Below, in pieces: positions 1 through 61,854 of a stretch of 64,000 nt of DNA. The DNA lies in the NCBI GenBank assembly GCA_045128835.1, contig JBGVRX010000029.1, positions 51,583-115,582 on the forward strand, given 5' to 3'. A program made the position numbers and the translations under genes. Positions within the stretch are counted from its first letter, which is position 1. Each line of letters begins with the position of its first letter. The stretch is from Bacilli bacterium (lineage in GTDB: Bacteria; Bacillota_I; Bacilli_A; RFN20; DUOF01). The notes beneath the pieces were generated by a model. The model had not been told where the DNA came from and ran no database searches. It saw only the letters and a list, made by a program, of their open reading frames with translations.

Positions 1-1426
1 AACTTTTTCCATTATTTTTAATCACTAAATAATCTTCTTCAGAAATTTCTTCTTTACTCCATAAATAATAAAGTGAATCAATTCCTGAATAATAATCAGT
101 AAAATTAACCTCTAGATTAACTTGATTATAATAATTTGTATCAATATAACCATCTTTATTTAAACTAAAACTAGGGGCGTTATTATCAAAGTAAAATATG
201 TAATAGTCACTAACATAATAATTTCCCGTATAATCATAAGCATAATATCTCATACAATAAGGACCATCATTTAAATCAGGACCTAAAATAAAACTAACTC
301 CGTTTTCATAAGCAAAATTATAACTTTGACCCCAATCACAAGTATTATAATAAGGAACTATTATTTGATAAAATAAATTACTTGGATCAATACCACTTTT
401 TGAATCATCAACAGTAATCTTTACTTCAACACTTTTAGCGTATTCATCAATTGATGCAACACTTGTATTTTCTTCATCTACAGTTGGTAATTCAGTATCA
501 AAATAAAATATCTCATCTAATAAAACTATACTATCTGGAAATCTACTATTACAATTAGTTTGACATTGCACTACTGTTTTAAATCTAGCGTATTCATAAT
601 TGATGTTATTATTAGAATCATATAACAAAGTATCTGCTGAATAATAAAATGTAAAGTTACCAAGGTAAGGAGTAAGATTTAATGATTGATTTCCAGAACT
701 TACTGTCTCTACGGCTTCATCTCTACAAATATTATCTCCTACACACACACTATTTGTAACCAAAAAAGTCGGGGCGTTATCCCAAGTTAAGCTAGATGAT
801 ATGTTATTAGACATATATCCTTTAACATAAACATATTTATTAGCTTGACTGAAATAATTGTCTACATATTTCTTACCTTCATTTTCAGTATAGAAAGTAT
901 CAACTAAAAATTGATAACTATAATCTAGTTCACTAGAAACAAACTCAATATCATCAAGTATAATTTCTTCATTACATCCATCATCTATACAAACAAGTTT
1001 GTTACTAAATTTAACATATTCAAAATTAAAACCTTCACTATAATAAGGCATATCTCCATCCCAAAATTGAAAGGAATAGGTTTCACTGCTAAGAATATCT
1101 TGAGGATTTTCTTGTTGATCTTTACCAGTTAAATCAGTTTCACAAAGTTCTTCTTGCCCGCTTACTTTGTAACAAAATTTATGCTCCCAACGATAACTTT
1201 TACCTGTTTCTTCTAAACCTTTTAAAGTTACCGCAAATTGCATTCTTTCTTTTATCACACCATAATCATCTTCCAAAGAATAATAAACAGGAAGTTTATC
1301 TGTTCCTACTTCAACTTCAAAAGTAGAACTAGAAACTTTTTTCGCAGAAACATCTATAGATTCCATGAATAAGGCACAAACAAAAACAAAAACAATATAT
1401 ACAAAATTAAATATTTTCTTCATCAT
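1..1426 (-). CDS. Secreted/cell-surface protein of unknown function. Partial: the C-terminus lies beyond the window start.
   Basis: Manual reverse-complement translation gives MMKKIFNFVYIVFVFVCALFMES..., a signal peptide followed by a Cys-containing, Tyr/Asn-rich region. The ATG directly abuts the stop of the upstream gene (sense TAAATGATG), and a GGAGG RBS lies inside the upstream gene's 3' end. Not in the ORF track because it is truncated. Confidence 0.5.
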   Translation of the reverse strand, partial: MMKKIFNFVYIVFVFVCALFMESIDVSAKKVSSSTFEVEVGTDKLPVYYSLEDDYGVIKERMQFAVTLKGLEETGKSYRWEHKFCYKVSGQEELCETDLTGKDQQENPQDILSSETYSFQFWDGDMPYYSEGFNFEYVKFSNKLVCIDDGCNEEIILDDIEFVSSELDYSYQFLVDTFYTENEGKKYVDNYFSQANKYVYVKGYMSNNISSSLTWDNAPTFLVTNSVCVGDNICRDEAVETVSSGNQSLNLTPYLGNFTFYYSADTLLYDSNNNINYEYARFKTVVQCQTNCNSRFPDSIVLLDEIFYFDTELPTVDEENTSVASIDEYAKSVEVKITVDDSKSGIDPSNLFYQIIVPYYNTCDWGQSYNFAYENGVSFILGPDLNDGPYCMRYYAYDYTGNYYVSDYYIFYFDNNAPSFSLNKDGYIDTNYYNQVNLEVNFTDYYSGIDSLYYLWSKEEISEEDYLVIKNNGKS

Positions 1427-2878
1427 TTACGCCTCCACTTCCATAATTAAATTTATTAAAACTAAATATACAATTAACACGCTTATCAAAATAATAAACA
1501 TTGTTTGAGTATATGGTACAACTATCATCAAACAAGGAATTACAAACCAAAACAAAACGCTTAAAACCTTAAACAAGAAGTAATTCTTTAATTTAGTTTT
1601 TTCTTCATTATCCCCTTTTAATAAATAATACATATCATTTTTCTTTATTAAAGCAGATTGACTTTTAAACCCATAATGATAAATATCTTCAACTTTACCA
1701 CCTAATAAATTAAATAACTTACTAGTATTCAATACTTTAACTTTTTCTGTATAAATAACTTCACTATCATTATTAAATTCAACAGAAATAATTAAATTAC
1801 CATTACTACCACCATATTTTCCTTCTTGACCTTTTCCTTCTATTTCCATTTTAGAAGTACATTTAGTAATGTTATGACAGTCAATTGTTTCTTCTAGACT
1901 ACAAACAGTGTAATCACCATTAAAATACACCATTTTATTCTTATAATTTTTGTTTATAAATAAATACATTTGTTTATCTTCACCATCGTATTTACTATTA
2001 AAAAATTTAAAAACAATCTTTTTATTATTAAAATCAAATTGCTTACTATATCCATCTTCAACAAAACAAGGAACCTCAAGTTTAAAAGCACCAAATTCAG
2101 AAAAATATTCTTTACTAAATCCAAATAAGGTTTCTTCTTTAGTTAAGTAATAATCTACTTCAATAACATCACCATTAATTTTAACATTTTCTTTATCATA
2201 AAAATCAAAAGAAACTTTCAAATTAGACTTAAGATTATTTCCATAGTCATCACCATAACCCTTAAATTCTTTAAAAGAATCATCAACGTAAAAAGCGATC
2301 TTATCTTTTGTTAAGTGATATCCTTTTCCTCCACACTTTTTACAATTAACACTTACTTTGCCTTCTCCTCTACAGATTGGGCACCAAATCATATGTTCTT
2401 TATACTCAACTACTTTTTCACCATTACAAGTTTGGCAAGTAACAAAGTCAACACATGAATCACATTTAACCTTATGAGAATATTCTATTTCATAACGCAA
2501 ATTCAAAAGTTTATATAGATAACTTAATTTAACATTAACTTCAATATCTTTATAACTAGAAACGCTCAAATCTTCTACACTGTTATAATCTATTTCTTGA
2601 ATTTCATTAACTTGATTTTCTTTACTAAAATAATCATACAGGTCATATGTTTTTAAAGCATTTTCTTTCAAAGATTCCTTATCTTCCAGATTATACATCT
2701 TTCGTCTTTGTTCATCTTTTATATTCTCATATGCCTTTATAATCTCTCTATATTTTTTATAAGCATGAATAGATGTGTTAAAAGAAGGATCATACTTTCT
2801 TTTTAAGTCATTGTATGATGTTTCAATTTCTTTATCAGTTGCATCTCTAGTAACATTTAAAATCTCATAACTATCCAT
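1427..2878 (-). CDS. Membrane-anchored DnaJ-like protein. It has an N-terminal J-like domain with a degenerate HPD motif, a CR-type zinc finger (CxxCxGxG x4), a DnaJ CTD-like region and two C-terminal TM helices.
   Basis: N-terminus DSYEILNVTRDATDKEIETSYNDLKRKYDPS aligns with the DnaJ J-domain DYYEILGV...KYHPD, but HPD is replaced by DPS. The zinc finger reads CDSC...CQTCNGEK...CPICRGEG...CKKCGGKG. The segment GKGQEGKYGGSNGNLIISVEF resembles the CTD GDLxVxV motif. A hydrophobic C-terminal tail follows. RBS AAGGAGATGA sits upstream. Confidence 0.6.
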   Translation of the reverse strand: MDSYEILNVTRDATDKEIETSYNDLKRKYDPSFNTSIHAYKKYREIIKAYENIKDEQRRKMYNLEDKESLKENALKTYDLYDYFSKENQVNEIQEIDYNSVEDLSVSSYKDIEVNVKLSYLYKLLNLRYEIEYSHKVKCDSCVDFVTCQTCNGEKVVEYKEHMIWCPICRGEGKVSVNCKKCGGKGYHLTKDKIAFYVDDSFKEFKGYGDDYGNNLKSNLKVSFDFYDKENVKINGDVIEVDYYLTKEETLFGFSKEYFSEFGAFKLEVPCFVEDGYSKQFDFNNKKIVFKFFNSKYDGEDKQMYLFINKNYKNKMVYFNGDYTVCSLEETIDCHNITKCTSKMEIEGKGQEGKYGGSNGNLIISVEFNNDSEVIYTEKVKVLNTSKLFNLLGGKVEDIYHYGFKSQSALIKKNDMYYLLKGDNEEKTKLKNYFLFKVLSVLFWFVIPCLMIVVPYTQTMFIILISVLIVYLVLINLIMEVEA

Positions 2879-2896: not shown

Positions 2897-3883
2897 CTAT
2901 AATAAATCTATAACCTCATTGATTAATCTGATATCTTTATACTTATCTCTATTTTTTAACAAGTATTTTTTTATATCACCTTTGTAATCTTTAAGTTTGA
3001 AAGATTCAAAACAACTTCCTTCAACTTCATCAATCACTACTTTTCCCACATTATATCCTTTTGTTTCTCTACCTATTTCTACAAAAGAATACTCACTAAA
3101 CTCTTTAATAATCTCTTCAATATAAATTTTATTTCCCTCAATTGTAAACTTCTTGCTTTCATCTACAACAAGAATATAATCACTATTTACTAAATTATTC
3201 TCTCTTCCATAAAACAAATTAACTTTGAAATTACTACTTAAAAATTCTTTTTTATCTTCACTTAGTTCTCTTGAATCATCTAGTTTTAAAGCATTCTTTT
3301 TTAAATAATCTTTAATATTTTTATTTATATTATTACTATTAACATCCATTTCAAAATAATATGGATTAGCTTCTAAACTAGTATAATTAAGTGCAATATC
3401 GTCATATCTATTAGACAATTCCTTCTTATATTTATTAATCAATTCTAAGAATTTAAAATCATTATTCCAAACAACAACATTGCTACTATTATTAATTTTA
3501 TTTTCACTAACTAATTCATTTTTTAAAGGATTATAAATAACCCTTTTCATTTCCTTTTTTTCTAATACAGGAATCTTATTTATATTCAAGCAATATTCTC
3601 CAAAAGCACTAAACTTAATATCATTAACTATAATTTCATTAATATCCTCACTATCACTATTATTAATGATAAGACCATTATCTAATAAATCATAAAAATT
3701 ATTTTGATAAAGGTACAACAAAGCCTTAGTTACATCCATATCCAATAAGACTTCACTAATAGTCTTTTTGCTTCCTTGTTTTATGATTTTGATTAGTAAA
3801 AACACAAATAAATCCATTTTTTCTAAATTATAAAGTTCAATTTCACTATTAAAATCACTAAAAGAAACAAAATTAATCTTCAT
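2897..3883 (-). CDS. Hypothetical protein, 328 aa, no recognisable motif.
   Basis: Long ORF, Lys/Asn-rich. Its start overlaps the helicase stop by 11 nt, suggesting translational coupling. Confidence 0.4.
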   Translation of the reverse strand: MKINFVSFSDFNSEIELYNLEKMDLFVFLLIKIIKQGSKKTISEVLLDMDVTKALLYLYQNNFYDLLDNGLIINNSDSEDINEIIVNDIKFSAFGEYCLNINKIPVLEKKEMKRVIYNPLKNELVSENKINNSSNVVVWNNDFKFLELINKYKKELSNRYDDIALNYTSLEANPYYFEMDVNSNNINKNIKDYLKKNALKLDDSRELSEDKKEFLSSNFKVNLFYGRENNLVNSDYILVVDESKKFTIEGNKIYIEEIIKEFSEYSFVEIGRETKGYNVGKVVIDEVEGSCFESFKLKDYKGDIKKYLLKNRDKYKDIRLINEVIDLL

Positions 3884-6800
3884 AATTTATCACCTCACCA
3901 AAATAGTTGTTTGGTTCATCAATCTTGCCTACAACTCTATCATAAATCTCACGATATATTTTTCTAACACTTACATCACTACTGTCATCTAATGCTTCCA
4001 TTTTAATTTTAAGACTTGAAAAGAATGGCTTAGATCCAACAATAATTAACATCTTTCTAGCTCTTGATAAGGCAACATTAATTCTTTCAAACTTCTTAAC
4101 AAAATCTCCAGCTTCAAAAAGAGGATTATTTCTAACAAAGTTAACAATAATAATATCTTCTTCTTTACCTTGGAATTCATCTACCGTAGAAACTTTACTC
4201 TTATTAAAATTCAAAGCTTCAAACTTCATTTTAGAAACTTCTTTTTTCAATTCACTAACTTGATCGCCATACAAAGAAATAACTCCAACACTGCACGCTT
4301 CCTTCATACTTCCTTCATCAATCAAAGCTTTATATCCTCTATCTAAAGTTTTTAAAATTTCTTTAGTTAAATAGATTTCTTCCTCATTATAGAAAGATGT
4401 TGAAACGATACTTCCCTTTTTCTTCTTTCTTTCATAACTTACATTACGATTAACATCATAATGAGAATTAAACCAATATGTATGAATGTTTTCTTCAAAC
4501 AAACTATAAGAGTTACTACTTACATTTAAATAGTGCCTCTTTGCCTCATTTTGTTCTTTTAAATTACCAAGTTTTAATTTATCATCATAGAAAATGTTTA
4601 CGACATCCATTATTTGCTCATGGCTTCTGTATTGATTTACTAACATGTATTTATTATTTCTAGATTTTTTGAATAATTCCTTAAACATACTATTTTCTAC
4701 TAAAGATTCATATTTAGAAAGCAATTCTTTATCACTATCGTCTTTAAACATCTTTTCCTTATATTTGAATAAAGGTGGTAATTGACGATGATCTCCTACT
4801 AAAATAATACTCTTTCCATATAAAATAGGAATTAAAAGTTCTACCCCATTAGCCTTACTAACTTCATCTATAATAACTACATCAAAATCTATATTTTTAA
4901 GTTCAATATCTCCTAACCCCAATTTCTTTAGATACTCATTTTTCTCTTCCAAATACTTAGAATTAGCGTTACATGTAATACTGTAAACATTCGCATTATT
5001 ATTTAGTAAATATTTCGTATATTTTACTTTATCCTTCTCTAGTAAATCTTCCTTGTTATCTTCAATGTATTTAATTACATCCTTATATAAAAATTCATAT
5101 TCCTTATATTTACTTTCTTCTTTTTCAAACTTATTCTTTTCTTGATTTATATAAGAATGAATAACATTTAAGCATCCTTCATCATCCAAAGGTCTCTTGT
5201 TAAAAGAAAGAATATTATTAAAATACTCATCAAAATATTCATCAATTTCTCTAAAGTCTTTTTCTCTTCCCTTAGTCTTATTTGCTATTTGATTATTTAA
5301 CTCATTAATCTCTTTTGATAAGGAACTTCTACTTTCTTTGTATTCATTAACCTTTGAACTATAAACATCTAAACTATTCTTTGCTTCATTATAAAAATTA
5401 TCTAAAGTAGAGATATTCTTGTTTATAAATTTCTTATAATCACTTGCAAACTTTTCGTTATTACTAAAATAAATTTTAAAATATTTTAAATAATCATTAA
5501 AATTTTCATACTCTTCATTTATTTCATATTCTTTTACAAATTCTAATCCTCTAAATACTGACGAAGATAAATAACCTTTGTATTCATTTATATCGTAATT
5601 ACTTCTTCTAAATTCATTTATAAATAACAAATTATTCTTGAAATCTCTAATCTTACTAAGAGAAACACTTATTTTATTATCCAATTCGTTTGCTTTGCTT
5701 TTTACAATATTTCTATTATTAATCAAACTTCTAACTTCTTTTCTTAAATTTAAATGTTTAATAACCTTATCTTTAATTTCTTCATATCTTACAAATGATT
5801 GCTCAACTGTTTTACCATATAAAACAAAGTTTTTCTCTTTGTTCAAATACTTATTTTTCATCTTTTCATAAAAATTATCTACAAGTTTATCTGGCAAATA
5901 ACTCTTATTAGATTTTATCTTTCTTTCACTGTTTACTAATCTAATTGGCAAAACATCTAGTTCATCAGGAAGTCTTTCAATAACATTGTCTATTGCAACG
6001 TGTGTTTGAGATGAAAGTAAAACTTTCTTTCCCATTTTATTATATTGGTAAACCATTTCTGTAATAGTTTGAGTCTTACCAGTTCCTGGAGGTCCTTGAA
6101 GTAAAAAGATAGAGTTCGAATTAATCGCACGATAAACAGCTTCTTTTTGATATTTATCCAAAGAATTATTGCTCCATACAATATCCTCTCTTTTTAAAAC
6201 ATCTTCACTAGTCTCAAACTCACTAATATTGAATAAGTAACTAGCAATACCAGGACTCTTAACATTACCTTCTCTTAAATCTCTTAAAGCTTGTTTTCCT
6301 CTTTTATAAAGTGCTACATCACCACTTAAGATATTAACCAAAACAGGCTTTTCTCCAAACTCTCTAGTAACATATTCATTAACTCTAGCAAAACTAAAAT
6401 ATAAATCTAAATCCTCATCACTCCAGAACTTTGAAAAAGAATAAGTTGCTTCCGTTTCACTTTCACTAACTAACTCTAACGGTTTTAACAAACTACCTAG
6501 TCTTCTAGTTTTAAAACTAAATTCTAATTCGTTATTTCCAACCTTAAGTTCTCCTTTTTCCAAACAATCAACTTCATTAGCTAATTCTATTTCTTGAGAA
6601 ACAAAAAATTGCAAATTGTTGAAACTATTCTCATTCTTTTTTATTCTAACTAGAAATTCTACAGCGATTACACTGTTATATGATTCATCAACCATCTCAT
6701 TTCCATCTACATAAAGATAATTATTACCATCATCAAAATAAGTGACATCCTCATACTTTTTACAAATATTTAAGTTTCTTTTAACCTCTTTTAACTCAAT

Positions 6801-7352
6801 TGCCTTAAATTCTAAAGTCTTATAGAATCCTAGTTTCTTTAAAAAATGTCTTTTTTCAAACTCTAAATAACTTTCAAAATCTCTAACAAAATCTAAACAA
6901 TGATAATCATAAACATTTGGAGTCTCATTAATAATATATCTAACAGTTTTAAGATCGCTCAACGCTTTCTTATAATCATTTTTTATTTTTACATCAAAAG
7001 AAAATTCTTTTTCATATTTTCGCATTTTCTTACTATCGTTTATGTAAATATCTTTAACCTTATAATAACTTTCTCCATCCTTAGTTATTATAAAGTCTCC
7101 AACAAATTGATATAGTTGTCCTTTTGGTCTAATAAAAAAATTTTTGTAAAAATCAAAGTTTATATCTTTTAAAAGTCTTCTTTCAAGACTTGAACATGCT
7201 ACAAAAAAAGTATTTTCTAGCACAACTACTTCTTTAACAAAATTATTCAAATCAACATTAATTTCATCTAAGTATTTATAAAATGATGCTCCTGCTAGTC
7301 TCTTCTTATATTCATCTTTATAAACTTCACTAAAATCAAAGAAAATACCCAT
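3873..7352 (-). CDS. Superfamily 1B helicase of the Upf1/DNA2/NAM7-like family (AAA_11/AAA_12 type). It carries an N-terminal domain of about 400 aa of unknown function and a coiled-coil insertion of about 390 aa.
   Basis: Walker A LLQGPPGTGKTQ (nt ~6085-6115). Walker B VVIIDEVSKA. Motif III VGDHRQLPP. Motif IV QYRSHEQI. Motif V TVDEFQGKEEDIIIVNFVRNN. Motif VI INVALSRARKMLIIVGS. A long heptad-like Lys/Glu/Asn-rich insertion lies between Walker A and B. RBS GGAGGTG precedes the ATG. Confidence 0.75.
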   Translation of the reverse strand: MGIFFDFSEVYKDEYKKRLAGASFYKYLDEINVDLNNFVKEVVVLENTFFVACSSLERRLLKDINFDFYKNFFIRPKGQLYQFVGDFIITKDGESYYKVKDIYINDSKKMRKYEKEFSFDVKIKNDYKKALSDLKTVRYIINETPNVYDYHCLDFVRDFESYLEFEKRHFLKKLGFYKTLEFKAIELKEVKRNLNICKKYEDVTYFDDGNNYLYVDGNEMVDESYNSVIAVEFLVRIKKNENSFNNLQFFVSQEIELANEVDCLEKGELKVGNNELEFSFKTRRLGSLLKPLELVSESETEATYSFSKFWSDEDLDLYFSFARVNEYVTREFGEKPVLVNILSGDVALYKRGKQALRDLREGNVKSPGIASYLFNISEFETSEDVLKREDIVWSNNSLDKYQKEAVYRAINSNSIFLLQGPPGTGKTQTITEMVYQYNKMGKKVLLSSQTHVAIDNVIERLPDELDVLPIRLVNSERKIKSNKSYLPDKLVDNFYEKMKNKYLNKEKNFVLYGKTVEQSFVRYEEIKDKVIKHLNLRKEVRSLINNRNIVKSKANELDNKISVSLSKIRDFKNNLLFINEFRRSNYDINEYKGYLSSSVFRGLEFVKEYEINEEYENFNDYLKYFKIYFSNNEKFASDYKKFINKNISTLDNFYNEAKNSLDVYSSKVNEYKESRSSLSKEINELNNQIANKTKGREKDFREIDEYFDEYFNNILSFNKRPLDDEGCLNVIHSYINQEKNKFEKEESKYKEYEFLYKDVIKYIEDNKEDLLEKDKVKYTKYLLNNNANVYSITCNANSKYLEEKNEYLKKLGLGDIELKNIDFDVVIIDEVSKANGVELLIPILYGKSIILVGDHRQLPPLFKYKEKMFKDDSDKELLSKYESLVENSMFKELFKKSRNNKYMLVNQYRSHEQIMDVVNIFYDDKLKLGNLKEQNEAKRHYLNVSSNSYSLFEENIHTYWFNSHYDVNRNVSYERKKKKGSIVSTSFYNEEEIYLTKEILKTLDRGYKALIDEGSMKEACSVGVISLYGDQVSELKKEVSKMKFEALNFNKSKVSTVDEFQGKEEDIIIVNFVRNNPLFEAGDFVKKFERINVALSRARKMLIIVGSKPFFSSLKIKMEALDDSSDVSVRKIYREIYDRVVGKIDEPNNYFGEVINYED

Positions 7353-7364
7353 CTATAACACCTC

Positions 7365-8714
7365 CTATCTTATAACTTTAACTATAACTTTATTTCCATC
7401 TTCATCTACTACAACGATTTCCTTCTTTTTGTTTAAAGTGACTTTTAAACCACTCTCAAACAAGTTAACTTCTTCAAAAAAGAACTTTTTATAATCTTGC
7501 AAATAAATAACTTTATCTTTTTTACTAACACGAACAGTAACCTTATATACATCATAGTTAAAAGGATTTAATTTAAAAACTGCGCTCTCACATTCATTTT
7601 TATCAAGCATGAATCCTTGTTCTTTAACTTCTACTTCTTTTTCTTCTTCTATATTTTTGGGAAATGACAATGTCAATTTACTCTTATTAAACTCAATTGT
7701 CTTCTTACCATCACTAACTTCATATTTAGTTAATTTAATAGGCATTGAATATAAAACATCATCAATACATTTAAAATCTTCTTCAAAGTAAATTTTTAAG
7801 TATAAGTCTCCTTGCTCTCCACCAAACTTACCATCTAACCCTTTTCCTTTTAGTTTAACAATTTTAAAATTGTTCGCTTCTTCTATTTCTATATACTGAT
7901 AATCTTTATTATTTATTTGTTTATAATAAGAAATGTTTAAACATTTTAAATTACTAGATAACTCTTTTTTATTAATATAAAATCCTGGCATATCTTTCTT
8001 TATAACGACATTTTTATAAACGTCTTTACCCTTTAAAGGAACTAGTTCACTCTCTATACAAATATAAAATGAGCCTTCGTTAATCCCTTGATTTTCAAGC
8101 TTAATTACTTCTCTAGTTTCTTCTCCGCTCGATTTTATTTTTTCAAAACCTTTTATAGTCTCTACATTTTTACTTATTCCTTTTATAATTTCTTCTTTAG
8201 AAAACTTTATTATTCTTTTGTCATAAACATCATTACCAACTACTTCAAAACATTCATAATCATTTATTTGAACTTTGATAAACAAATCACCTTTAATATC
8301 ATTACTTTCTCTTCCTTTTCCTTTTACAGTAATAATATCTCCTTCTTTTAAAGTTGGAGTTAATTGAACTTTAACTTTACCTTTTTTTACTAATTTACCT
8401 TTTCCTTCACATAAAGGACAAATGTTTTTAATAATTCTTTTATTCCCCTTACAGTGATTGCAAATCACTTTATTACCATTAATATTAATAAAACCTAACC
8501 CATTACATTTATCACACTTTTCGTAATATGTATTAAAATTAACACTCTCTACACATTTACAATCTTTTTCTACTTTACTTATAACTTCAACTTCTTTTCC
8601 TTTTAAAATATCCAAATATGAAAAAGAACCTTCATCATAAATATCTAGATTCTCTTTAACATTTAAATTATTCTCATAATTATAATTATCTACAAAAATA
8701 TTATTCTTTTTCAT
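7365..8714 (-). CDS. DnaJ-like substrate-binding module protein with a CR-type zinc finger and two DnaJ CTD-like repeats. It lacks a J domain.
   Basis: Zinc finger CKCVESV...CDKCNGLG...CNHCKGNK...CPLCEGKG. CTD-like motifs KGKGRESNDIKGDLFIKVQIND and GKGLDGKFGGEQGDLYLKIYFEED. No J-domain at the N-terminus. The start overlaps the coaE stop (ATGA). Confidence 0.55.
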   Translation of the reverse strand: MKKNNIFVDNYNYENNLNVKENLDIYDEGSFSYLDILKGKEVEVISKVEKDCKCVESVNFNTYYEKCDKCNGLGFININGNKVICNHCKGNKRIIKNICPLCEGKGKLVKKGKVKVQLTPTLKEGDIITVKGKGRESNDIKGDLFIKVQINDYECFEVVGNDVYDKRIIKFSKEEIIKGISKNVETIKGFEKIKSSGEETREVIKLENQGINEGSFYICIESELVPLKGKDVYKNVVIKKDMPGFYINKKELSSNLKCLNISYYKQINNKDYQYIEIEEANNFKIVKLKGKGLDGKFGGEQGDLYLKIYFEEDFKCIDDVLYSMPIKLTKYEVSDGKKTIEFNKSKLTLSFPKNIEEEKEVEVKEQGFMLDKNECESAVFKLNPFNYDVYKVTVRVSKKDKVIYLQDYKKFFFEEVNLFESGLKVTLNKKKEIVVVDEDGNKVIVKVIR

Positions 8715-9277
8715 TTTAATTCTCCTAGCAATTTTATTATAAAACTATCATCAATATTTTGCCCATCTATTATAAAATCCATTTCTTCCCTGTTATAATC
8801 ATTTTTCATAACTTCTCTTAAATCAAAATATTCATTAGTGATATTATCTCTTTTTATAACTCTATTCTTTCTTGTTTCATATTTAGTGTCTACTAAAATC
8901 TTATAGTCTAGTAAATTCCAATATTTTGTTTGATCTAAAATAATCCAATCTAAAAACACCTTTTTATCTTTGTTTTCTTTTATTATTCTATCTATAATTT
9001 CATTTTCTATTTTTTCTGTATAATCGTAATATTTTTGATATTTAACCTTATCATTAAAAACAATATTCCCTACTTTTTTTCTATCTAAAACTCCATTAAC
9101 TACAACTGAATTATCTTCTACTATTTTTACTATGTTCTCTACTATCTCTTTATCTTTTAAAATATCATGCCCGATTTTATCAATTTCAACATGAATTATA
9201 CCATCATCAAAAGACATCATTCTCCTAATTAAAGATGACTTTCCTGCTCCTGATTTTCCAACAACACCTATAAGCAT
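8711..9277 (-). CDS. coaE: Dephospho-CoA kinase.
   Basis: N-terminal P-loop MLIGVVGKSGAGKSS. Length of 188 aa and collinear similarity to CoaE (IGLTGGIASGKST...VIDAD...LDRKKLG...). A TATAAT-like -10 and GGAG RBS lie upstream. Confidence 0.7.
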   Translation of the reverse strand: MLIGVVGKSGAGKSSLIRRMMSFDDGIIHVEIDKIGHDILKDKEIVENIVKIVEDNSVVVNGVLDRKKVGNIVFNDKVKYQKYYDYTEKIENEIIDRIIKENKDKKVFLDWIILDQTKYWNLLDYKILVDTKYETRKNRVIKRDNITNEYFDLREVMKNDYNREEMDFIIDGQNIDDSFIIKLLGELK

Positions 9278-9308: not shown

Positions 9309-9334
9309 AAAAAAAAGAAGGAATAATTCCCTCT
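9309..9334 (-). terminator. Putative rho-independent terminator separating the upstream 248-aa gene from the coaE operon.
   Basis: Hairpin AGAAGG-AATAATT-CCCTCT (minus-strand RNA AGAGGG...CCUUCU) followed by a U-tract (A-run on the plus strand at 9309-9315). Confidence 0.4.
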
Positions 9335-9364
9335 TTTAAAGTGTACACAAGTAAAATATATACC

Positions 9365-10111
9365 CTATTTTTTACCTATATTTACTAGTATATATTCAAG
9401 ATAATTTAAAATTTGTTCTTTATCTTTTCTATCTGATGATTTTACTAGATTAGAATAATCATTTAATTCGTCAAAAGAAAGATTTTCATAGTGACTAGAT
9501 ATATATGCTTCTAACGTCTCTATACTTATTTTATCAGGCGCTAAATTATTTAATACAATCACATCTTTCTTTATTTCACTGCTACACTTTAAATAAAAAT
9601 TAGGATCATTTTTAATAAAGGCGCATTGAACTAAATTAGAACAATTGCATAATAATTCTATATCCTTTTTAGCAAGTTCGTATTGAACCTCTTCAGATGC
9701 ATATTCAAGATAAAATTTATTTTTAAAAACTACTTTATTTTGATTTTTTAAAGAAATCAAAGATAATTTTGATGGGTTATCAAAAGCAAATTTCACTTGA
9801 GCATCATCACTAGCGTATTTAACTTTATTATTGTTCTTTTCAATAATTTGAACTTGCAAATCTTCACTTAAAAGATGAAAATTCTCATTATTAACTATTT
9901 GCACTTGAATTTTATAACTTAAAAATTTAATAACCTCTGGTTCTAAATCAGCTAATTCTTTAACAACATTTAGATCTAATAATTCTAACTTTTTTCCCAA
10001 CTCATTTAAAATTAATTCATTATATTTTAGCTCACCAGAAAAAGTTTTCCACTCATCAATAGTAAATCCTTTTTTTAATTTTTTCAATGCAACTTTTTCT
10101 GTTTTTTTCAT
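9365..10111 (-). CDS. Hypothetical protein, 248 aa.
   Basis: Long ORF with no recognisable motif. Internal repeat IQVQIVNNENFHLLSEDLQVQIIEKNN. Lies 26 nt downstream of the 665-aa gene. Confidence 0.35.
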   Translation of the reverse strand: MKKTEKVALKKLKKGFTIDEWKTFSGELKYNELILNELGKKLELLDLNVVKELADLEPEVIKFLSYKIQVQIVNNENFHLLSEDLQVQIIEKNNNKVKYASDDAQVKFAFDNPSKLSLISLKNQNKVVFKNKFYLEYASEEVQYELAKKDIELLCNCSNLVQCAFIKNDPNFYLKCSSEIKKDVIVLNNLAPDKISIETLEAYISSHYENLSFDELNDYSNLVKSSDRKDKEQILNYLEYILVNIGKK

Positions 10112-10137
10112 AATTATTCCTACCTTTATAATGGCTA

Positions 10138-12135
10138 TTATCTTTTGCCTATAACATCTTTATCTGTCGCTAAACTTTCGCTAGAAACTTTCACATCACT
10201 TTCACTTACTTCACTTTGTAATAAATGCTCATTATTTTTCATTGCCAGCTTCATTCTATTTCTCTTTGCAAGTACTGTATATTGTTGCTTCTTTACAACC
10301 ACTATAGGCATCTTCCACCCTTTAGGCTTTAAACCGTTTTCAACACAATACTTAGTAAATGCTTCTGCAGCTTTTGCTTGAACATCACCAATCTCATCAC
10401 TACACAAAATGGCACTTGGAATGGTTTTACCACCAAATTCTTTGCTGTCCTCAAAATCAAATCTATCAATATCAACTTCGTTATAATTGCCCAAAGCTGT
10501 GTTTTTAATTAATTTATCAGCTACCATAAACCTTGCGCTATCACTAACTTCCACATCACTAACTCTAGCTTCCTTTGAACTGTTGATATCAGAAGGACTC
10601 ATAACAAGAATTTTTGCCTTATCAAACAAATAAGTTACTTGGACATCATCACATCCAAACAATTTATTATATTTATTAAATTCTAAATTATTTAAGCAAT
10701 CTTGATTTGTATATGAGCAACAAATGTGTGATGCTCCATTTTCGTATTCAAACCAAGAAGATGCAAAATCTCCTACAACACTATTTCCTGATAACCCTTT
10801 AACAAAATTTGTGGTAGATAAGAACGAGAAATCTGCTCCATCAAAAACATACACCGGAGAGTTAATAGCGGTTCCCTCTATTGTTTTTGGACTTTTAGCT
10901 ACATAAATTCCCTCTTCTAATCCATTGGCTCTTTTTTCAATTGACTCTACAGTCGATATTGTCTTCATCATGTTATTTTCAAATGCCAATGGCAATTTAT
11001 CAACAATATTTAAATAGTTTCCTTCAACAGTATTTCCTCTTTTTTCAAGGTATTCTGCATATTGCAAAAGTTTATAATAGTCTTCTTTAGAAGTAACACC
11101 TTCTGCAAAATCCAATATTTTAATTAGTCCTTTAATACCTTCAATTTCTTCACTTGTAAAAATAGAAGCAACATTATCTTCGTTATTCACAATAGATTCC
11201 ATATCAAAATATTCCTTCATAATTTGAGGTTTATTTTGAGACAAATAATAGGCCCACTTTCTATGTCCCAACATATCTAATGCATAATAGTTTCTAAAAA
11301 TAGCATCTGCTAAAAGGTTGGCAGCCTCTTTGCTGTCTCCTTGTTTCAATGCAACTTCTGCTTTCGTCTTTGCTAGTAAATACACCTTATTTTTGTTTTC
11401 GAAGAAATTATTTAGACCTTTAACGCTATGTACATTATATGGATTATCTATATCCTTAAATATTTCTATTAAAGAACTTTTTTGAACATCTGTAATTTTT
11501 TTATTATTTTTTCTTAAATCTCTAATAAGTGGTTGATATTCCTTAAATTCTCTAACCATTTTTTCAAAATTCACTCTAGAAAAATCTATATTTTTCTCAT
11601 AAAAATGATATAAATATTTAAAATCAGCCATTTTTTCCTTGTCAGTTAAAATGTCTTTAACAAGAATTAAAGAATGTGGTTTCAAATTTAAATTAAGTAT
11701 TTTATTAACAAAATCTTCACTTAAATTATCGAATACCTCTTGATGTAACACATGAATTTCACTAGCATTAAAAACATTAATATTCTTTCTTTGTTTTAAA
11801 ATTTTTACGGCTGATTTTCCAAAATGATTTCCTACAATTTTTAAAAAGGTTTGATGAGTTTTACTATTAATTTGCTCATCATTCATATAATTAAACGCAT
11901 TGGAAACATTACCATTATACTTATTATTTTCCACGCCAAAAATTCCTTTTTCTACATCCTCATTAATAGCGTCTATCAATTTATTTATTTCTTTTTTAGG
12001 AACGGAAGAAATTATTGATCTTTCAAAAAAATTAGCCACTAAAGGGCGTATTCTTTTGTCTTTTATTTTCAATAAATAGTAATTTAATCCAGGGTAATTC
12101 GCATTACTAAAATCAAAAACATTGTTTTTGCTCAT
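10138..12135 (-). CDS. Hypothetical protein, 665 aa.
   Basis: Long ORF with no recognisable catalytic motif. Its C-terminal half contains a Cys/aromatic-rich segment (GASHICCSYTNQDC...GCDD). Confidence 0.4.
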   Translation of the reverse strand: MSKNNVFDFSNANYPGLNYYLLKIKDKRIRPLVANFFERSIISSVPKKEINKLIDAINEDVEKGIFGVENNKYNGNVSNAFNYMNDEQINSKTHQTFLKIVGNHFGKSAVKILKQRKNINVFNASEIHVLHQEVFDNLSEDFVNKILNLNLKPHSLILVKDILTDKEKMADFKYLYHFYEKNIDFSRVNFEKMVREFKEYQPLIRDLRKNNKKITDVQKSSLIEIFKDIDNPYNVHSVKGLNNFFENKNKVYLLAKTKAEVALKQGDSKEAANLLADAIFRNYYALDMLGHRKWAYYLSQNKPQIMKEYFDMESIVNNEDNVASIFTSEEIEGIKGLIKILDFAEGVTSKEDYYKLLQYAEYLEKRGNTVEGNYLNIVDKLPLAFENNMMKTISTVESIEKRANGLEEGIYVAKSPKTIEGTAINSPVYVFDGADFSFLSTTNFVKGLSGNSVVGDFASSWFEYENGASHICCSYTNQDCLNNLEFNKYNKLFGCDDVQVTYLFDKAKILVMSPSDINSSKEARVSDVEVSDSARFMVADKLIKNTALGNYNEVDIDRFDFEDSKEFGGKTIPSAILCSDEIGDVQAKAAEAFTKYCVENGLKPKGWKMPIVVVKKQQYTVLAKRNRMKLAMKNNEHLLQSEVSESDVKVSSESLATDKDVIGKR

Positions 12136-12220: not shown

Positions 12221-12245
12221 AAAAAAAAGTGCTTAATTAGCACTT
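12221..12245 (-). terminator. Rho-independent terminator overlapping the stop codon of the GtrA-like gene.
   Basis: Palindrome AGTGCTTAATTAGCACT preceded on the plus strand by AAAAAAAA, giving a U-tract after the hairpin in minus-strand RNA. Confidence 0.5.
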
Positions 12246-12664
12246 TCTTCAACTTTATTAACTTTTGTTTCAATACTGTCTTTGAATACATAATATCTTT
12301 GATACAAATATTCTGTAGCAAAGTTAAGAACCATTGTTCCTATTAAAATAACATATTCATTAACGTGTGGCTCTAACCACGCTCCTGCTAGTGTTGTAAC
12401 AGGAATAAACACTACATAAAATAACAATGTTTTTGTCATAGCAATAGGAACATTGCTTGCAGATTTAAATGTAAATTCTCTATTTAATGTAAAATTCCAA
12501 ATAACAGACAATACAACTGAAATCAAGTATTGAACCCAATATCCACTCTTAAATACAAGTTCATTTAAAAGTGTAAATGAACCTATTTGAATTATTCCTG
12601 CTGATAAAGAGAACAAAGTAAACTTTATAACTCTCAATAACTCTTTTTTCTTATTTTCTTCCAT
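12233..12664 (-). CDS. GtrA-family membrane protein.
   Basis: 143 aa with four predicted TM helices. The N-terminal LRVIKFTLFSLSAGIIQIGSFTLL resembles GtrA-like proteins. Confidence 0.45.
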   Translation of the reverse strand: MEENKKKELLRVIKFTLFSLSAGIIQIGSFTLLNELVFKSGYWVQYLISVVLSVIWNFTLNREFTFKSASNVPIAMTKTLLFYVVFIPVTTLAGAWLEPHVNEYVILIGTMVLNFATEYLYQRYYVFKDSIETKVNKVEESAN

Positions 12665-12666
12665 AT

Positions 12667-13032
12667 TTACTCCTCTATAGTTCTTGTAGCAACAATATCA
12701 ACACCTAAGTCCATTACATTACTTACAATAACATCTTTCACTTTGATTGGTGCACTAACTTCAATATTATCTAAGTAACGCACAATTTCTTGAACTTTAT
12801 CTTTTGGTACATCTCCACTTGTAATAACAGGTAATCTTCTAACAAGTTTAGAATTAATTTTAACTGTTGATGTTAAAGTTCTTTTAGGATCGACAGCTTC
12901 TTGTTTTCCATACTTTTCTCCTCTTATACAAGTATGTCCAGTAACATTACCATTGTCATCAACTTTCAAATGACATCCTTTAGGACAAACAATACAAATA
13001 AATTCTTTCATTTTATCTATCCTCCACTTCAA
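12667..13032 (-). CDS. DUF1667 domain protein, a Cys-rich partner of glycerol-3-phosphate dehydrogenase operons.
   Basis: CIVCPKGCHLKV...GHTCIRGEKYG metal-binding motifs. Position downstream of the two FAD oxidoreductases matches the conserved Firmicutes cluster. Confidence 0.55.
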   Translation of the reverse strand: MKWRIDKMKEFICIVCPKGCHLKVDDNGNVTGHTCIRGEKYGKQEAVDPKRTLTSTVKINSKLVRRLPVITSGDVPKDKVQEIVRYLDNIEVSAPIKVKDVIVSNVMDLGVDIVATRTIEE

Positions 13033-14266
13033 TTACTAGTTTACCTTCATTAGTAGTAAATTCTTCTTTCTTTACTACAATTGTTTCCATTTCTGCTGGA
13101 AGCAAATGAAGTTTAACTACACTTTTTATAACTTGATCATTAAGTTTAATAACAACTTTTTTGTTTTCCATAGGGCCTCTAACTCTAAATTTAAATTCTA
13201 CATTTTCATCAATGTTTTCTTTGTTTATAATTTGAGGAATAATATAGCTAATGCCTGTGCCTGGTACACAATCTATTTTTTTATCACTTCTTGTTACTAA
13301 TCCTTTTAAGTATTTACTAGCACCTTTACCAGCTGCTCTACCTTCTTTAGTAACAAAATCAACTAAGTCATGAACATGCAAACTATTACCACAAGCAAAA
13401 ATTCCTTCTTTAGTAGTCTCCATCATTTCATTAACAATAGGTCCTCTTGTTGAGCTCATTGCCATACCCATATCTTCTAATAAAACATTTGATGGAAGTA
13501 ATCCTACAGATAAAAGCAATGTATCAACATCAAACTCTATTTCAGTACCTGGAATGAAATTAAACTTTTCATCAACCTTACTTATAACAACCTTTTCAAT
13601 TCTATCTTTACCAATAATATTACTTACTGAATGAGATAAATATAAAGGAATATCAAAATCATTTAAACATTGTACAATGTTACGGTTCAATCCATTAGAA
13701 TACGGCATTAATTCTGCTACTCCTAATACTTTAGCACCTTCCAAAGTCATTCTTCTTGCCATAATAAGTCCAATATCTCCACTACCTAATATGAACACTC
13801 TTTTACCAACTAAATAACCATCAATATTTAAATATCTTTGAGCAAGACCAGCACTCATAATTCCACTAGGTCTCTCTCCAGGAATTGCAATAGCACCTCT
13901 TGTTCTTTCACTACATCCAGTAGACATAACTATCGCTTTTGCTTTAATAACACAATATCCATCTTTATCATTTGAATAAATAATTGTTTTGTCTTCATTA
14001 ATACCTAAAACCATTGTATCTACTTTATATTCAATACCACACTCTTTAAATTTATCAACAAATCTTTGAGCATATTCAGGACCTGCTAACTGTTCTTTAA
14101 ACTCATGCAAACCAAATCCATTGTGAATACATTGAAGTAAAATACCACCTAAATATTTTTCTTTTTCTAAAAGAAGAATACTTTTAATTCCTTCTTCATA
14201 AGCAGTTAAGGCTGCAGCTAAACCAGCACTTCCTCCACCAACTACAACTAAATCATATTCTCTCAT
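13013..14266 (-). CDS. NAD(P)/FAD-dependent oxidoreductase of the pyridine nucleotide-disulfide family. Partner of the anaerobic glycerol-3-phosphate dehydrogenase.
   Basis: Rossmann motif YDLVVVGGGSAGLAAA. A second dinucleotide motif VFILGSGDIGL. The start is trimmed to the internal MREYDLVVVGGG, which abuts the stop of the upstream gene. Confidence 0.7.
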   Translation of the reverse strand: MREYDLVVVGGGSAGLAAALTAYEEGIKSILLLEKEKYLGGILLQCIHNGFGLHEFKEQLAGPEYAQRFVDKFKECGIEYKVDTMVLGINEDKTIIYSNDKDGYCVIKAKAIVMSTGCSERTRGAIAIPGERPSGIMSAGLAQRYLNIDGYLVGKRVFILGSGDIGLIMARRMTLEGAKVLGVAELMPYSNGLNRNIVQCLNDFDIPLYLSHSVSNIIGKDRIEKVVISKVDEKFNFIPGTEIEFDVDTLLLSVGLLPSNVLLEDMGMAMSSTRGPIVNEMMETTKEGIFACGNSLHVHDLVDFVTKEGRAAGKGASKYLKGLVTRSDKKIDCVPGTGISYIIPQIINKENIDENVEFKFRVRGPMENKKVVIKLNDQVIKSVVKLHLLPAEMETIVVKKEEFTTNEGKLVIEVEDR

Positions 14267-14267
14267 G

Positions 14268-15692: not shown

Positions 15693-15709
15693 AAGTTATA
15701 TCTCCTTCC

Positions 15710-18048
<2,339 letters not shown>

Positions 18049-57727: not shown

Positions 57728-57752
57728 GAATTATTTTTGTGAGGTGAAGCAA

Positions 57753-60103: not shown

Positions 60104-60104
60104 G

Positions 60105-61838: not shown

Positions 61839-61854
61839 CAACTAAAAAGGCATA

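What the first reader, a model, noticed from the sequence alone, without database searches (positions are those of the whole stretch)
7365..8714. J-domain-less DnaJ paralog with CR zinc finger and duplicated CTD in the same operon
The protein keeps three canonical CxxCxGxx repeats and one degenerate repeat. It has two segments with the DnaJ CTD hallmark (G.G...GDLFIKVQI and GDLYLKIYF), but no J domain at all. Together with the pseudo-J protein this gives two DnaJ-derived substrate-binding modules, neither of which can activate Hsp70. This suggests they were repurposed as adaptors or sensors, for example to bind unfolded or foreign proteins, rather than as co-chaperones.
Basis: seen in the sequence. 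Interest (0 to 1): 0.6.

Follow-up and report, generated by a model that had tools for sequence, protein, structure and literature searches.

The report
J-less DnaJ paralog in helicase operon
This gene encodes a rare DnaJ-type chaperone relative that keeps the zinc finger and a doubled client-binding domain but has no Hsp70-activating J domain, and it always sits with a helicase, a second crippled DnaJ relative and a surface protein in one small group of uncultured gut bacteria, so it probably binds proteins for that complex rather than for Hsp70.

Summary
Window 7365-8714 (minus strand) is a 449-aa ORF with a significant DnaJ_C match (1.2e-20). It has eight invariant zinc-finger cysteines, an AlphaFold model whose 15 best PDB matches are all Hsp40/DnaJ C-terminal domains, and no J domain. 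Its second half matches DnaJ_C on its own, so the CTD unit is truly doubled: four beta subdomains plus a C-terminal domain.

The family is tiny, with 14 clusters at E<1e-30 among 1.84 billion proteins. It occurs only in uncultured gut Bacilli and always in the same five-gene block:
- the J-less DnaJ
- a Upf1/MkoA-like SF1 helicase
- a winged-helix protein
- a membrane-anchored paralog whose J-like domain always lacks the His of the HPD motif
- a type-I surface Ig-like protein

In the window's clade the block follows coaE and appears fixed. In four of six genomes an AbiL-like abortive-infection pair follows it. It was not found on phage or plasmid records.

The likeliest role is an Hsp70-independent protein-binding subunit that works with its paralog and the helicase at the membrane, perhaps as a sensor in a conflict system. 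That function is inferred, not shown. I rate it a new variant of a known kind (J-less DnaJ-like proteins), of moderate interest.

The parts
7365..8714 (-). J-domain-less DnaJ paralog, 449 aa (the finding)
8646..8714 (-). N-terminal 23 residues with the conserved Y11-N12-x-x-N15 motif. Low-confidence helix, possible docking peptide. It replaces the J and G/F regions.
   Evidence: Y11 and N15 are invariant in all 9 divergent representatives. pLDDT is 43-52.
8031..8645 (-). First DnaJ_C unit (residues 24-228): CTD I (24-51 and 107-160) and CTD II (161-228)
   Evidence: Pfam residues 34-212 match profile positions 10-133. The alignment to PDB 6jzb DnaJ spans residues 64-219. Strand pattern.
8397..8561 (-). 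Cysteine-rich zinc-finger domain (residues 52-106) inserted in CTD I. It has four Cys pairs, the first of them CxC.
   Evidence: All 8 Cys are invariant. PF00684 gives 5.3e-5, 23.8 bits, below its gathering score. The profile matches PDB 1exk (DnaJ CR) at 5.1e-5.
7575..8030 (-). Second DnaJ_C unit (residues 229-380) without a zinc finger: CTD I' ending in G-x-x-GDLYLKIYF, then CTD II'
   Evidence: Matches Pfam DnaJ_C on its own at 1.4e-7, 32.1 bits, above the gathering score. CbpA model matches residues 281-373. hhalign half against half gives E 4.8e-5.
7368..7574 (-). C-terminal beta-rich domain (residues 381-449). It is specific to this family and is not the helical DnaJ dimerisation domain.
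   Evidence: Five strands at pLDDT 91-93. No Pfam match. Absent from canonical DnaJ hits, which cover only residues 23-223.
3873..7352 (-). Upf1-like SF1 helicase, 1159 aa, with an N-terminal extension and a long insertion between Walker A and B. It is the next gene, 12 nt downstream.
   Evidence: Pfam AAA_11 and AAA_12. PADLOC MkoA 4.2e-103. PDB matches to IGHMBP2, DNA2, Sen1 and Upf1. Always adjacent to the DnaJ-like gene.
2897..3883 (-). 328-aa protein with a winged-helix domain plus beta domains of no recognised fold. It overlaps the helicase gene by 11 nt.
1427..2878 (-). Membrane-anchored paralog, 483 aa: J-like domain with HPD replaced by DPS, four CxxC pairs, CTD-like region, and two C-terminal TM helices
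   Evidence: Pfam DnaJ 8.8e-12. hhalign to the 449-aa family gives probability 98%. The HPD histidine is absent in 7 of 7 loci. The hydrophobic C-terminus is seen in the sequence.
1..1426 (-). Start of a surface Ig-like type-I membrane protein, cut by the window edge. Its ATG directly abuts the stop codon of the J-like gene.
   Evidence: Open frame of 475 codons with a signal-peptide-like N-terminus. Full-length orthologs of 763-925 aa carry PF16403 and a C-terminal TM segment. Present after the J-like gene in every locus.
8711..9277 (-). coaE (dephospho-CoA kinase), first gene of the transcription unit. A housekeeping gene, not part of the conserved block.
   Evidence: TIGR00152 scores 68.1 bits against a cut-off of 65.55. 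Absent next to the block in L003 and L010.
9313..9337 (-). Terminator-like hairpin that separates the upstream two-gene module from coaE and the operon
   Evidence: 11-bp stem followed by a T run. No terminator-like site was found between 9277 and 1427.

Best explanation
The 449-aa protein is a class-A DnaJ derivative that has lost the J domain and G/F linker. It keeps both zinc centres and the CTD fold, and it has gained a second CTD I/II unit and a new C-terminal domain.

Shown:
- Its identity and architecture.
- The invariant cysteines.
- Its closest relative is the membrane-anchored, HPD-less paralog encoded three genes downstream.
- It always occurs in one five-gene block: J-less DnaJ, Upf1/MkoA-like helicase, winged-helix protein, J-like TM paralog and surface Ig-like protein.

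Inferred:
- It cannot stimulate Hsp70 and works as an Hsp70-independent polypeptide-binding (holdase or adaptor) subunit.
- Like DnaJ, which acts as a dimer, it probably pairs with its membrane-anchored paralog. That would hold the helicase/winged-helix pair, or a client protein, at the inner face of the membrane.
- The most likely biological role is surveillance in a conflict (anti-phage or anti-MGE) system. In that model the DnaJ-derived modules gate the helicase by chaperone-titration logic, as DnaK/DnaJ gate sigma-32: binding of foreign or unfolded proteins would release or activate the nucleic-acid-directed part.
For: Identity and fold.

Eight Cys invariant down to 29% identity.

No J domain, and no space for one.

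Paralogy with the J-like TM protein.

HPD histidine absent in 7 of 7 loci.

Five-gene block conserved in loci with different flanks and down to 32% identity.

Tight gene spacing or overlaps, and no internal terminator.

Conflict-system hints:
- The helicase's best matches are antiphage helicase models (MkoA 4e-103; also ProA, Hhe, PLuB).
- An AbiLi (6e-66) and AbiLii-like pair lies about 50 bp downstream in L003, L006/L015, L013 and L016.
- There are variable insertion slots on both sides.

Precedents:
- Host DnaJ mediates phage sensing by bNACHT25 (PMC12169576).
Against: - No interaction was tested. Pairing with the paralog and binding to the helicase rest on gene order and paralogy only.
- No recognisable effector (nuclease, protease, NADase, pore former) is in the block. 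There is no PLD nuclease or kinase as in Mokosh.
- The block looks fixed and vertically inherited in its clade, unlike most defence systems.
- It was not found on viral contigs, phage records or plasmids.
- Its flanks are housekeeping genes, and it is translationally coupled to coaE.
- The adjacency to AbiL is seen within related genomes, so the cases are not independent.
- Conservation is weakest in the second CTD unit, where P0112 and P0113 lack the GDL motif.
Confidence: 0.45

Rival explanations
1. Dedicated biogenesis or quality-control factor for the co-encoded surface protein. The two DnaJ-derived proteins, one soluble and one membrane-anchored, would hold the 760-925-aa cysteine-rich preprotein unfolded and deliver it to the translocon. 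The helicase and winged-helix protein would act on its mRNA or be functionally separate.
For: The surface Ig-like gene follows the J-like gene in every locus, even the most distant, and abuts it with no gap in the window. It is a type-I membrane protein with a signal peptide and a C-terminal TM segment. One paralog is membrane-anchored. Fixed, vertical inheritance fits a lineage-specific housekeeping role. DnaJ alone has holdase activity (established knowledge). NCBIfam models for TopJ, the mycoplasma terminal organelle assembly J-domain protein, gave sub-threshold hits to the paralog's J-like domain.
Against: A 1159-aa Upf1-like helicase and a winged-helix protein have no obvious place in protein export, yet they are the most constant partners. 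Loss of the J and HPD elements removes the Hsp70 hand-off that known export-assisting JDPs use. No secretion component is in the block.
Confidence: 0.2
2. Still part of the Hsp70 cycle, indirectly. The J-less protein would form mixed oligomers with the housekeeping DnaJ or with its J-like paralog and feed clients to DnaK. Alternatively it would act as a competitive regulator of DnaJ/DnaK.
For: The CTD I/II and CR regions align with canonical DnaJ over residues 23-223. In DnaJ, zinc centre II helps lock clients onto DnaK (established knowledge). One locus has DPD, which keeps the Asp.
Against: The canonical helical dimerisation domain is replaced by a different beta domain. The HPD histidine is missing in all J-like paralogs. 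No Hsp70, GrpE or canonical J-protein signature occurs in the 64-kb window or in any fetched flank, although this says nothing about the rest of the genome.
Confidence: 0.1
3. Lineage-specific housekeeping nucleic-acid machine, for example membrane-associated RNA surveillance or decay or DNA maintenance. The DnaJ-derived proteins would be purely structural scaffolds that tether the helicase to the membrane, with no client sensing.
For: Fixed in the clade next to coaE and translationally coupled to it. The helicase motifs are intact, as seen in the sequence, and it resembles Upf1, IGHMBP2 and Sen1. It has a winged-helix partner. No toxin-like effector is present.
Against: This does not explain why both zinc centres and the CTD fold are so strictly kept, nor why the CTD was doubled. 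The recurrent AbiL-like neighbour and the MkoA-like profile of the helicase point towards conflict systems.
Confidence: 0.2

Closest known systems
Class A (type I) J-domain protein DnaJ / Ydj1 / DNAJA2
   Same: The CR zinc finger, with four Cys pairs, is inserted into CTD I and followed by CTD II. GDL-type motifs end the subdomains. Best sequence matches (6jzb, 7zhs, 1nlt) and best fold matches (6prq, 7zhs, 3lz8, 6jzb) are.
   Different: No J domain and no G/F linker. The first repeat is CxC rather than CxxC. A second CTD I/II unit and a new C-terminal beta domain replace the helical dimerisation domain. The NCBIfam DnaJ score is far below its cut-off (114 against 377).
Plant DnaJ-like classes without a working J domain: DnaJE (zinc finger only, e.g. 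ORANGE), DnaJF (CTD only) and DnaJD (less conserved J domain). As described in PMC12063368, citing Pulido & Leister 2018.
   Same: These are DnaJ-derived proteins that lack the J domain or carry a less conserved one. [quoted passage not shown] The 449-aa protein resembles E and F combined, and its 483-aa paralog resembles D.
   Different: This protein is bacterial. CR and CTD are kept together and the CTD is doubled. It is encoded with a helicase. No evolutionary link to the plant classes was tested.
Mokosh antiphage system (MkoA helicase plus MkoB PLD nuclease, or the fused MkoC)
   Same: The neighbouring helicase matches the MkoA model over residues 183-1141 (4.2e-103). Both are COG1112 Upf1-like helicases (bioRxiv 10.1101/2022.05.11.491447).
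   Different: No PLD nuclease and no Ser/Thr kinase domain is anywhere in the block. The partners are DnaJ-derived proteins, a winged-helix protein and a surface protein instead.
bNACHT25 with host DnaJ (PMC12169576)
   Same: A DnaJ-type client binder mediates the link between phage protein synthesis and activation of an immune protein. This is the closest precedent for a chaperone acting in phage sensing.
   Different: There it is the housekeeping DnaJ, with an intact J domain, working with a STAND NTPase. Here the modules are dedicated, lack a working J domain, and are encoded with an SF1 helicase. Nothing here has been tested.
Membrane-anchored bacterial J proteins DjlB/DjlC (partners of HscC) and mycoplasma TopJ
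   Same: N-terminal J-type domain with a C-terminal membrane anchor or a link to surface structures. NCBIfam TopJ models gave sub-threshold hits to the J-like domain of the 483-aa paralog. The DjlB/DjlC and TopJ biology is recalled from memory, not tested.
   Different: Those proteins keep HPD and work with an Hsp70. They lack the CR and CTD core and have no J-less soluble paralog or helicase partner.

Membership tests
DnaJ, class A J-domain protein (TIGR02349 DnaJ_bact) | N-terminal J domain with the HPD motif | tested here: not met
   No PF00226 match. Only 23 residues precede CTD I, and the start codon overlaps the coaE stop codon.
DnaJ, class A J-domain protein (TIGR02349 DnaJ_bact) | Gly/Phe-rich linker | tested here: not met
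   Residues 1-23 are MKKNNIFVDNYNYENNLNVKENL, with no G/F run.
DnaJ, class A J-domain protein (TIGR02349 DnaJ_bact) | Four CxxCxGxG repeats forming two zinc centres | tested here: met
   Four Cys pairs, all 8 Cys invariant. The first repeat is CxC, not CxxC. Zinc binding itself was not tested.
DnaJ, class A J-domain protein (TIGR02349 DnaJ_bact) | CTD I / CTD II beta-sandwich fold | tested here: met
DnaJ, class A J-domain protein (TIGR02349 DnaJ_bact) | Whole-protein score above the curated cut-off | tested here: not met
   114.1 bits against a cut-off of 377.2.
DnaJ, class A J-domain protein (TIGR02349 DnaJ_bact) | Stimulation of Hsp70 ATPase | not testable with these tools
   Needs biochemistry. 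Lack of a J domain predicts no stimulation.
Pfam PF01556 DnaJ_C | Score at or above the gathering score of 26.6 bits | tested here: met
   74.6 bits for the whole protein. 46.6 bits for residues 1-227 and 32.1 bits for residues 228-449, each tested separately.
Pfam PF00684 DnaJ_CXXCXGXG | Score at or above the gathering score of 32.7 bits | tested here: not met
   21.3-23.8 bits. Homology is supported instead by the invariant Cys pattern, the position inside CTD I, and the profile match to PDB 1exk at 5.1e-5. 4 of 48 homologs carry a precomputed PF00684 hit.
J-less DnaJ-like proteins (plant DnaJE / DnaJF classes) | No J domain, with retention of the DnaJA-type zinc finger (E) or the DnaJA/B-type CTD (F) | tested here: met
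   Both are retained and there is no J domain. Class definitions are from PMC12063368. These are descriptive classes, so meeting them does not show common descent.
J-less DnaJ-like proteins (plant DnaJE / DnaJF classes) | Phylogenetic grouping with the plant families | not tested
   No tree was made. Beyond the 14 family clusters, the exhaustive search listed proteins of canonical DnaJ length that match residues 23-223 only.
Mokosh defence system (for the operon) | COG1112 Upf1-like helicase | tested here: met
   MkoA model 4.2e-103. AAA_11 and AAA_12.
Mokosh defence system (for the operon) | PLD-family nuclease, as a separate MkoB or fused as in MkoC | tested here: not met
   No PLD or MkoB match in any of the seven proteins scanned. 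The 328-aa family has no invariant His.
Mokosh defence system (for the operon) | Ser/Thr kinase domain on MkoA (type I) | tested here: not met
   No kinase match in the helicase. The MkoA alignment starts at profile position 442.

The most novel reading that the evidence does not exclude
The five-gene block is a new kind of anti-phage or anti-MGE system. In it, two DnaJ-derived proteins without a working J domain, one soluble and one membrane-anchored, act as Hsp70-independent sensors of foreign or unfolded proteins and license a Mokosh-type Upf1-like helicase with its winged-helix partner at the membrane. It may be coupled to the surface Ig-like protein and to the AbiL-like pair downstream. 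This would be a dedicated, genetically encoded version of the 'chaperone as guard' logic seen with host DnaJ and bNACHT25.
Probability: 0.25. Interest if true: 0.8.

Novelty: new variant of a known kind. Interest (0 to 1): 0.5.

Why it matters
DnaJ's client-binding core is almost always studied as a feeder for Hsp70. Here evolution has cut that link twice in one operon: the J domain is deleted in one paralog and the HPD histidine is lost in the other. At the same time it has strictly preserved both zinc centres and the CTD fold, and even doubled the CTD.

This gives a clean natural system for asking what the CR/CTD module does by itself. It is also a bacterial counterpart to the plant DnaJE, DnaJF and DnaJD classes.

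The constant pairing with a Upf1/MkoA-like helicase, and the recurrent AbiL-like neighbour, make it a candidate for a chaperone-derived sensor in bacterial immunity. That idea has only one experimental precedent, bNACHT25 with DnaJ.

There are limits. The family is confined to a small clade of uncultured gut Bacilli, so any test needs heterologous expression, and the function remains inferred.

Tried and rejected
- Phage or plasmid origin: rejected. No relative was found in IMG/VR contigs. tblastn against phage and plasmid records found only canonical dnaJ, at 25-30% identity over residues 14-212. There are no tRNA genes and no flanking island repeats.
- Mokosh membership: rejected. No PLD nuclease and no kinase.
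- coaE as part of the system: rejected. It is a bona fide dephospho-CoA kinase and is absent beside the block in L003 and L010.
- The upstream 665-aa and 248-aa genes as part of the operon: rejected. They are separated by a terminator-like hairpin, are absent at this slot in L001, L006 and L016, and are inverted in L013.
- An EEVD-like tail on the helicase as a CTD-docking motif: rejected. Only GKIDEPNxYF is conserved and the acidic tail varies.
- Pseudogene or decaying paralog: rejected. Intact ORFs of constant length occur in 48 clusters at 41-100% identity.
- Literature searches found nothing on this family, on DnaJ with Mokosh, or on the 'PLuB' system.
Full report
**1. What is at the coordinates**

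Window 7365..8714 holds one ORF of 449 aa on the minus strand. The region has about 25% G+C and all neighbouring genes are on the minus strand. The start codon overlaps the stop codon of the upstream gene (..AAA ATGA AAA..) and has an AGGAGA site upstream. The next gene starts 12 nt after the stop, behind a GGAGGTG site.

**2. Check of the observation**

Profile matches:
- Pfam DnaJ_C: E 1.2e-20, 74.6 bits (gathering score 26.6), in two stretches.
- Pfam DnaJ_CXXCXGXG: E 3.3e-4, 21.3 bits, below its gathering score of 32.7.
- No J domain.
- NCBIfam DnaJ_bact aligns residues 16-213 to profile positions 110-318 of 354. The J and G/F parts are therefore absent, and the score (114 bits) is far below the cut-off of 377.
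- A profile of the family finds solved DnaJ (6jzb), DNAJA2 (7zhs), Ydj1 (1nlt) and the isolated DnaJ zinc-finger domain (1exk).

Cysteines: C52xC54, C67xxC70, C85xxC88 and C99xxC102. All are invariant in 18 close homologs and in all nine representatives of the family down to 29% identity. As in class A DnaJ, the cysteine-rich region is inserted between strands of CTD I (strands 25-51, then 107-150).

**3. 'Duplicated CTD'**

Two GDL motifs do not by themselves show a duplication. Canonical DnaJ has one at the end of CTD I and one at the end of CTD II. This protein also has a third, degenerate motif (G214-S/D-F-Y), which aligns with the CTD II motif of S. pneumoniae DnaJ.

The conclusion is nevertheless right:
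- Residues 228-449, scanned alone, match DnaJ_C above its gathering score (32.1 bits, 1.4e-7), with residues 284-371 on profile positions 46-135.
- The CbpA model matches residues 281-373.
- Profile-profile comparison of the two halves gives E 4.8e-5.
- A 35-nt direct repeat spaced 474 nt apart lies at the corresponding positions, encoding IITVKGKG.. and IVKLKGKG... This is weak but consistent.

The resulting architecture is:
- a 23-residue N-terminal peptide with an invariant Y11..N15
- CTD I with the inserted zinc finger
- CTD II
- CTD I' without a zinc finger
- CTD II'
- a family-specific beta domain (residues 381-449) in place of the helical dimerisation domain

**4. How big the family is**

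A word-indexed search of 5.8 billion proteins found 48 clusters, almost all 444-452 aa, at 41-100% identity. None carries a name. An exhaustive HMMER search of 1.84 billion representatives found only 14 with E<1e-30. After these come proteins of canonical DnaJ length, at E about 1e-20, which match residues 23-223 only. The GTDB species genomes with a hit are 'uncultured Bacilli bacterium' MAGs from human gut. No relative was found on viral contigs, phage records or plasmids.

**5. Genomic context**

Every locus with enough sequence has the same five genes in the same order:
- the J-less DnaJ (437-472 aa)
- an SF1 helicase (1139-1175 aa)
- an unannotated protein (263-352 aa)
- a J-domain protein (467-503 aa)
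- a Bact_surface_Ig-like protein (763-925 aa)

This holds for L001, L003, L006/L015, L010, L013, L016 and the window, including members at 32-42% identity whose flanks are unrelated. In the window the genes overlap or lie at most 18 nt apart. The surface-protein ATG abuts the preceding stop codon, and no terminator-like site lies inside the block. One such site lies just upstream of coaE, at 9337-9313.

coaE is a true dephospho-CoA kinase, scoring above the TIGR00152 cut-off, and is not part of the block because it is absent beside it in L003 and L010.

In the window's clade the block looks fixed:
- About 55 CoaE clusters at 58-99% identity mostly sit on contigs with the same lengths as those carrying the DnaJ-like and 328-aa families.
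- One unmatched long contig that I looked up (L013) carries the block. One other unmatched contig (9.5 kb) was not checked.
- Identities fall in parallel. For example, on the 225-kb contig CoaE is 71%, the DnaJ-like protein 64% and the 328-aa protein 71% identical to the window; on the 34.9-kb contig the values are 58%, 57% and 56%.
- Beyond this clade CoaE identity drops to 46%, and the one outgroup locus looked up (43% identity) has no block beside coaE.

**6. The partners**

- **Helicase.** It has AAA_11 and AAA_12 domains and intact motifs (GPPGTGKT, DEVS, QLPP, and the motif V and VI equivalents). It resembles IGHMBP2, DNA2, Sen1 and Upf1. Its best match in PADLOC is MkoA of the Mokosh system (4.2e-103, residues 183-1141). 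No PLD nuclease or kinase domain is in the block, so it is not Mokosh.
- **483-aa protein.** This is the closest relative of the J-less protein: hhalign probability 98%, E 4.9e-14, aligning residues 26-313 to 111-369, including the zinc finger and the GKxGGxxG(D/N)L motif. It has an N-terminal J-like domain (Pfam 8.8e-12) and two C-terminal hydrophobic helices. Aligned with E. coli DnaJ, the HPD tripeptide reads DPS, DPF, NPS, NPL or DPD in seven loci, and the His is never present.
- **Surface protein.** It has a signal peptide, Ig-like domains and a C-terminal TM anchor with a short basic tail.

**7. Hints on biological role**

Four of six distinct genomes (L003, L006/L015, L013, L016) carry a two-gene module about 50 bp after the surface-protein gene. 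It comprises an AAA_21 ATPase that matches AbiLi (6e-66) and an overlapping 194-aa gene that weakly matches AbiLii/HEC-01B, and so resembles an abortive-infection pair. The slots on both sides hold different genes in different genomes. These are defence-island-like features.

Four points weigh against a typical defence system:
- fixation and vertical inheritance in the clade
- housekeeping flanks
- translational coupling to coaE
- no recognisable effector

No Hsp70, GrpE or HPD-bearing J-protein signature occurs in the window or in any fetched flank. This says nothing about the rest of these genomes.

**8. Mechanism**

Shown: a DnaJ-derived CR and CTD protein with no J domain, a paralog lacking the HPD histidine, and a constant five-gene block.

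From established knowledge:
- HPD is required for stimulation of the Hsp70 ATPase (DnaJ H33Q and D35N are inactive).
- DnaJ's CTDs bind hydrophobic client segments.
- The zinc centres support DnaK-independent holdase activity and client locking.
- DnaJ acts as a dimer.
- DnaK/DnaJ titration by unfolded proteins controls sigma-32.

Inferred: the 449-aa protein is an Hsp70-independent polypeptide binder. It pairs with its membrane-anchored paralog and holds or regulates the helicase/winged-helix pair. The most likely purpose is surveillance in a conflict system, with binding of foreign or unfolded proteins as the trigger. I put about 0.45 on this composite. Within it, the architecture and the 'Hsp70-independent binder in a helicase complex' parts are much firmer than the sensing role.

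Rivals:
- a dedicated holdase for the co-encoded surface protein (0.2)
- a lineage-specific housekeeping nucleic-acid machine in which the DnaJ-like proteins are only scaffolds (0.2)
- residual indirect cooperation with Hsp70 (0.1)

**9. Comparison with what is known**

The protein works like, and descends from, class A DnaJ. It fails the defining tests for membership: J domain, G/F linker and curated score.

It fits the descriptive classes of J-less DnaJ-like proteins defined in plants: DnaJE (zinc finger only), DnaJF (CTD only) and DnaJD (less conserved J domain), as described in PMC12063368. It combines the E and F features, doubles the CTD and is bacterial. No descent from those classes was tested.

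The nearest functional precedent for a chaperone in phage sensing is host DnaJ with bNACHT25 (PMC12169576). I found no paper on this family or on a DnaJ-helicase system.

**10. Verdict**

I rate it a new variant of a known kind at the protein level. The operon may be a new kind of system, but its function is not established. Interest is 0.5.

Noticed in passing
L015:14989-16750, L016:15198-16959, L013:17718-17783 (cut), L003:20361-21419 (cut); would lie beyond window position 1: An AbiL-like two-gene module lies about 50 bp downstream of the surface-protein gene in four of six genomes. It comprises an AAA_21 ATPase of about 397 aa (PADLOC AbiLi 6e-66) and an overlapping 194-aa gene (AbiLii 2.4e-4, HEC-01B 3.6e-5). 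It is absent in L001 and L010. It could be a neighbouring defence system or part of the same unit.
   Followed up: partly
window 9365-12135, minus strand: A two-gene module (665 aa and 248 aa) has no Pfam or NCBIfam match; its only PADLOC match is a weak one to Cas5_IIId (4.9e-6), probably chance. A homologous pair (38% and 34% identity) sits in L013 at the same slot, but inverted and next to an ADP-ribosylglycohydrolase. L001, L006 and L016 carry other genes or nothing there. This looks like a variable insertion slot between the glp operon and coaE.
   Followed up: partly
window 1427-2878, minus strand: In the J-like domain of the membrane-anchored paralog, HPD is replaced by DPS (D/N-P-x in all seven loci) and is followed by an almost invariant FNTS motif. 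The conservation of this altered loop suggests a new partner rather than simple decay.
   Followed up: partly
window 3873-7352, minus strand: The helicase has a roughly 330-residue Lys/Glu/Asn-rich insertion between Walker A (about residue 420) and Walker B (about residue 820), an N-terminal extension of about 390 residues with no Pfam match, and a conserved C-terminal GKIDEPNxYF motif followed by a variable acidic tail.
   Followed up: partly
window 2897-3883, minus strand: The 328-aa protein gives a very confident model (pLDDT 92.6). It has one winged-helix domain and beta-rich domains with no clear structural relative in the PDB or BFVD. It may contain a new fold.
   Followed up: partly
window 8670-8684 (residues 11-15 of the 449-aa protein): The Y-N-x-x-N motif in the otherwise poorly modelled N-terminal peptide is invariant (Y11, N15) across the whole family, down to 29% identity. 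It is a candidate docking motif.
   Followed up: no
window 7828-7862 and 8302-8336: A 35-nt direct repeat (74% identity, 474 nt apart) lies inside the gene. The two copies encode the K-G-K-G stretches that precede the two GDL motifs. It may be a DNA-level trace of the internal CTD duplication, or chance in AT-rich sequence.
   Followed up: no
window 12233-18048, minus strand: The upstream context is housekeeping: a GtrA-like membrane protein, DUF1667, two FAD oxidoreductases, glycerol kinase and a hydrolase. The DUF1667-to-hydrolase part is syntenic with L001 and L006. The 438-aa and 474-aa oxidoreductase ORFs overlap by 62 nt as listed, probably because of an over-long start call.
   Followed up: no
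window 58001-62000: GC skew is negative (about -0.2 to -0.5) over the whole window except 58-62 kb, where it turns positive. This coincides with the only long run of plus-strand genes (57744-61838), so the skew appears to follow the coding strand rather than mark a replication origin or terminus.
   Followed up: no
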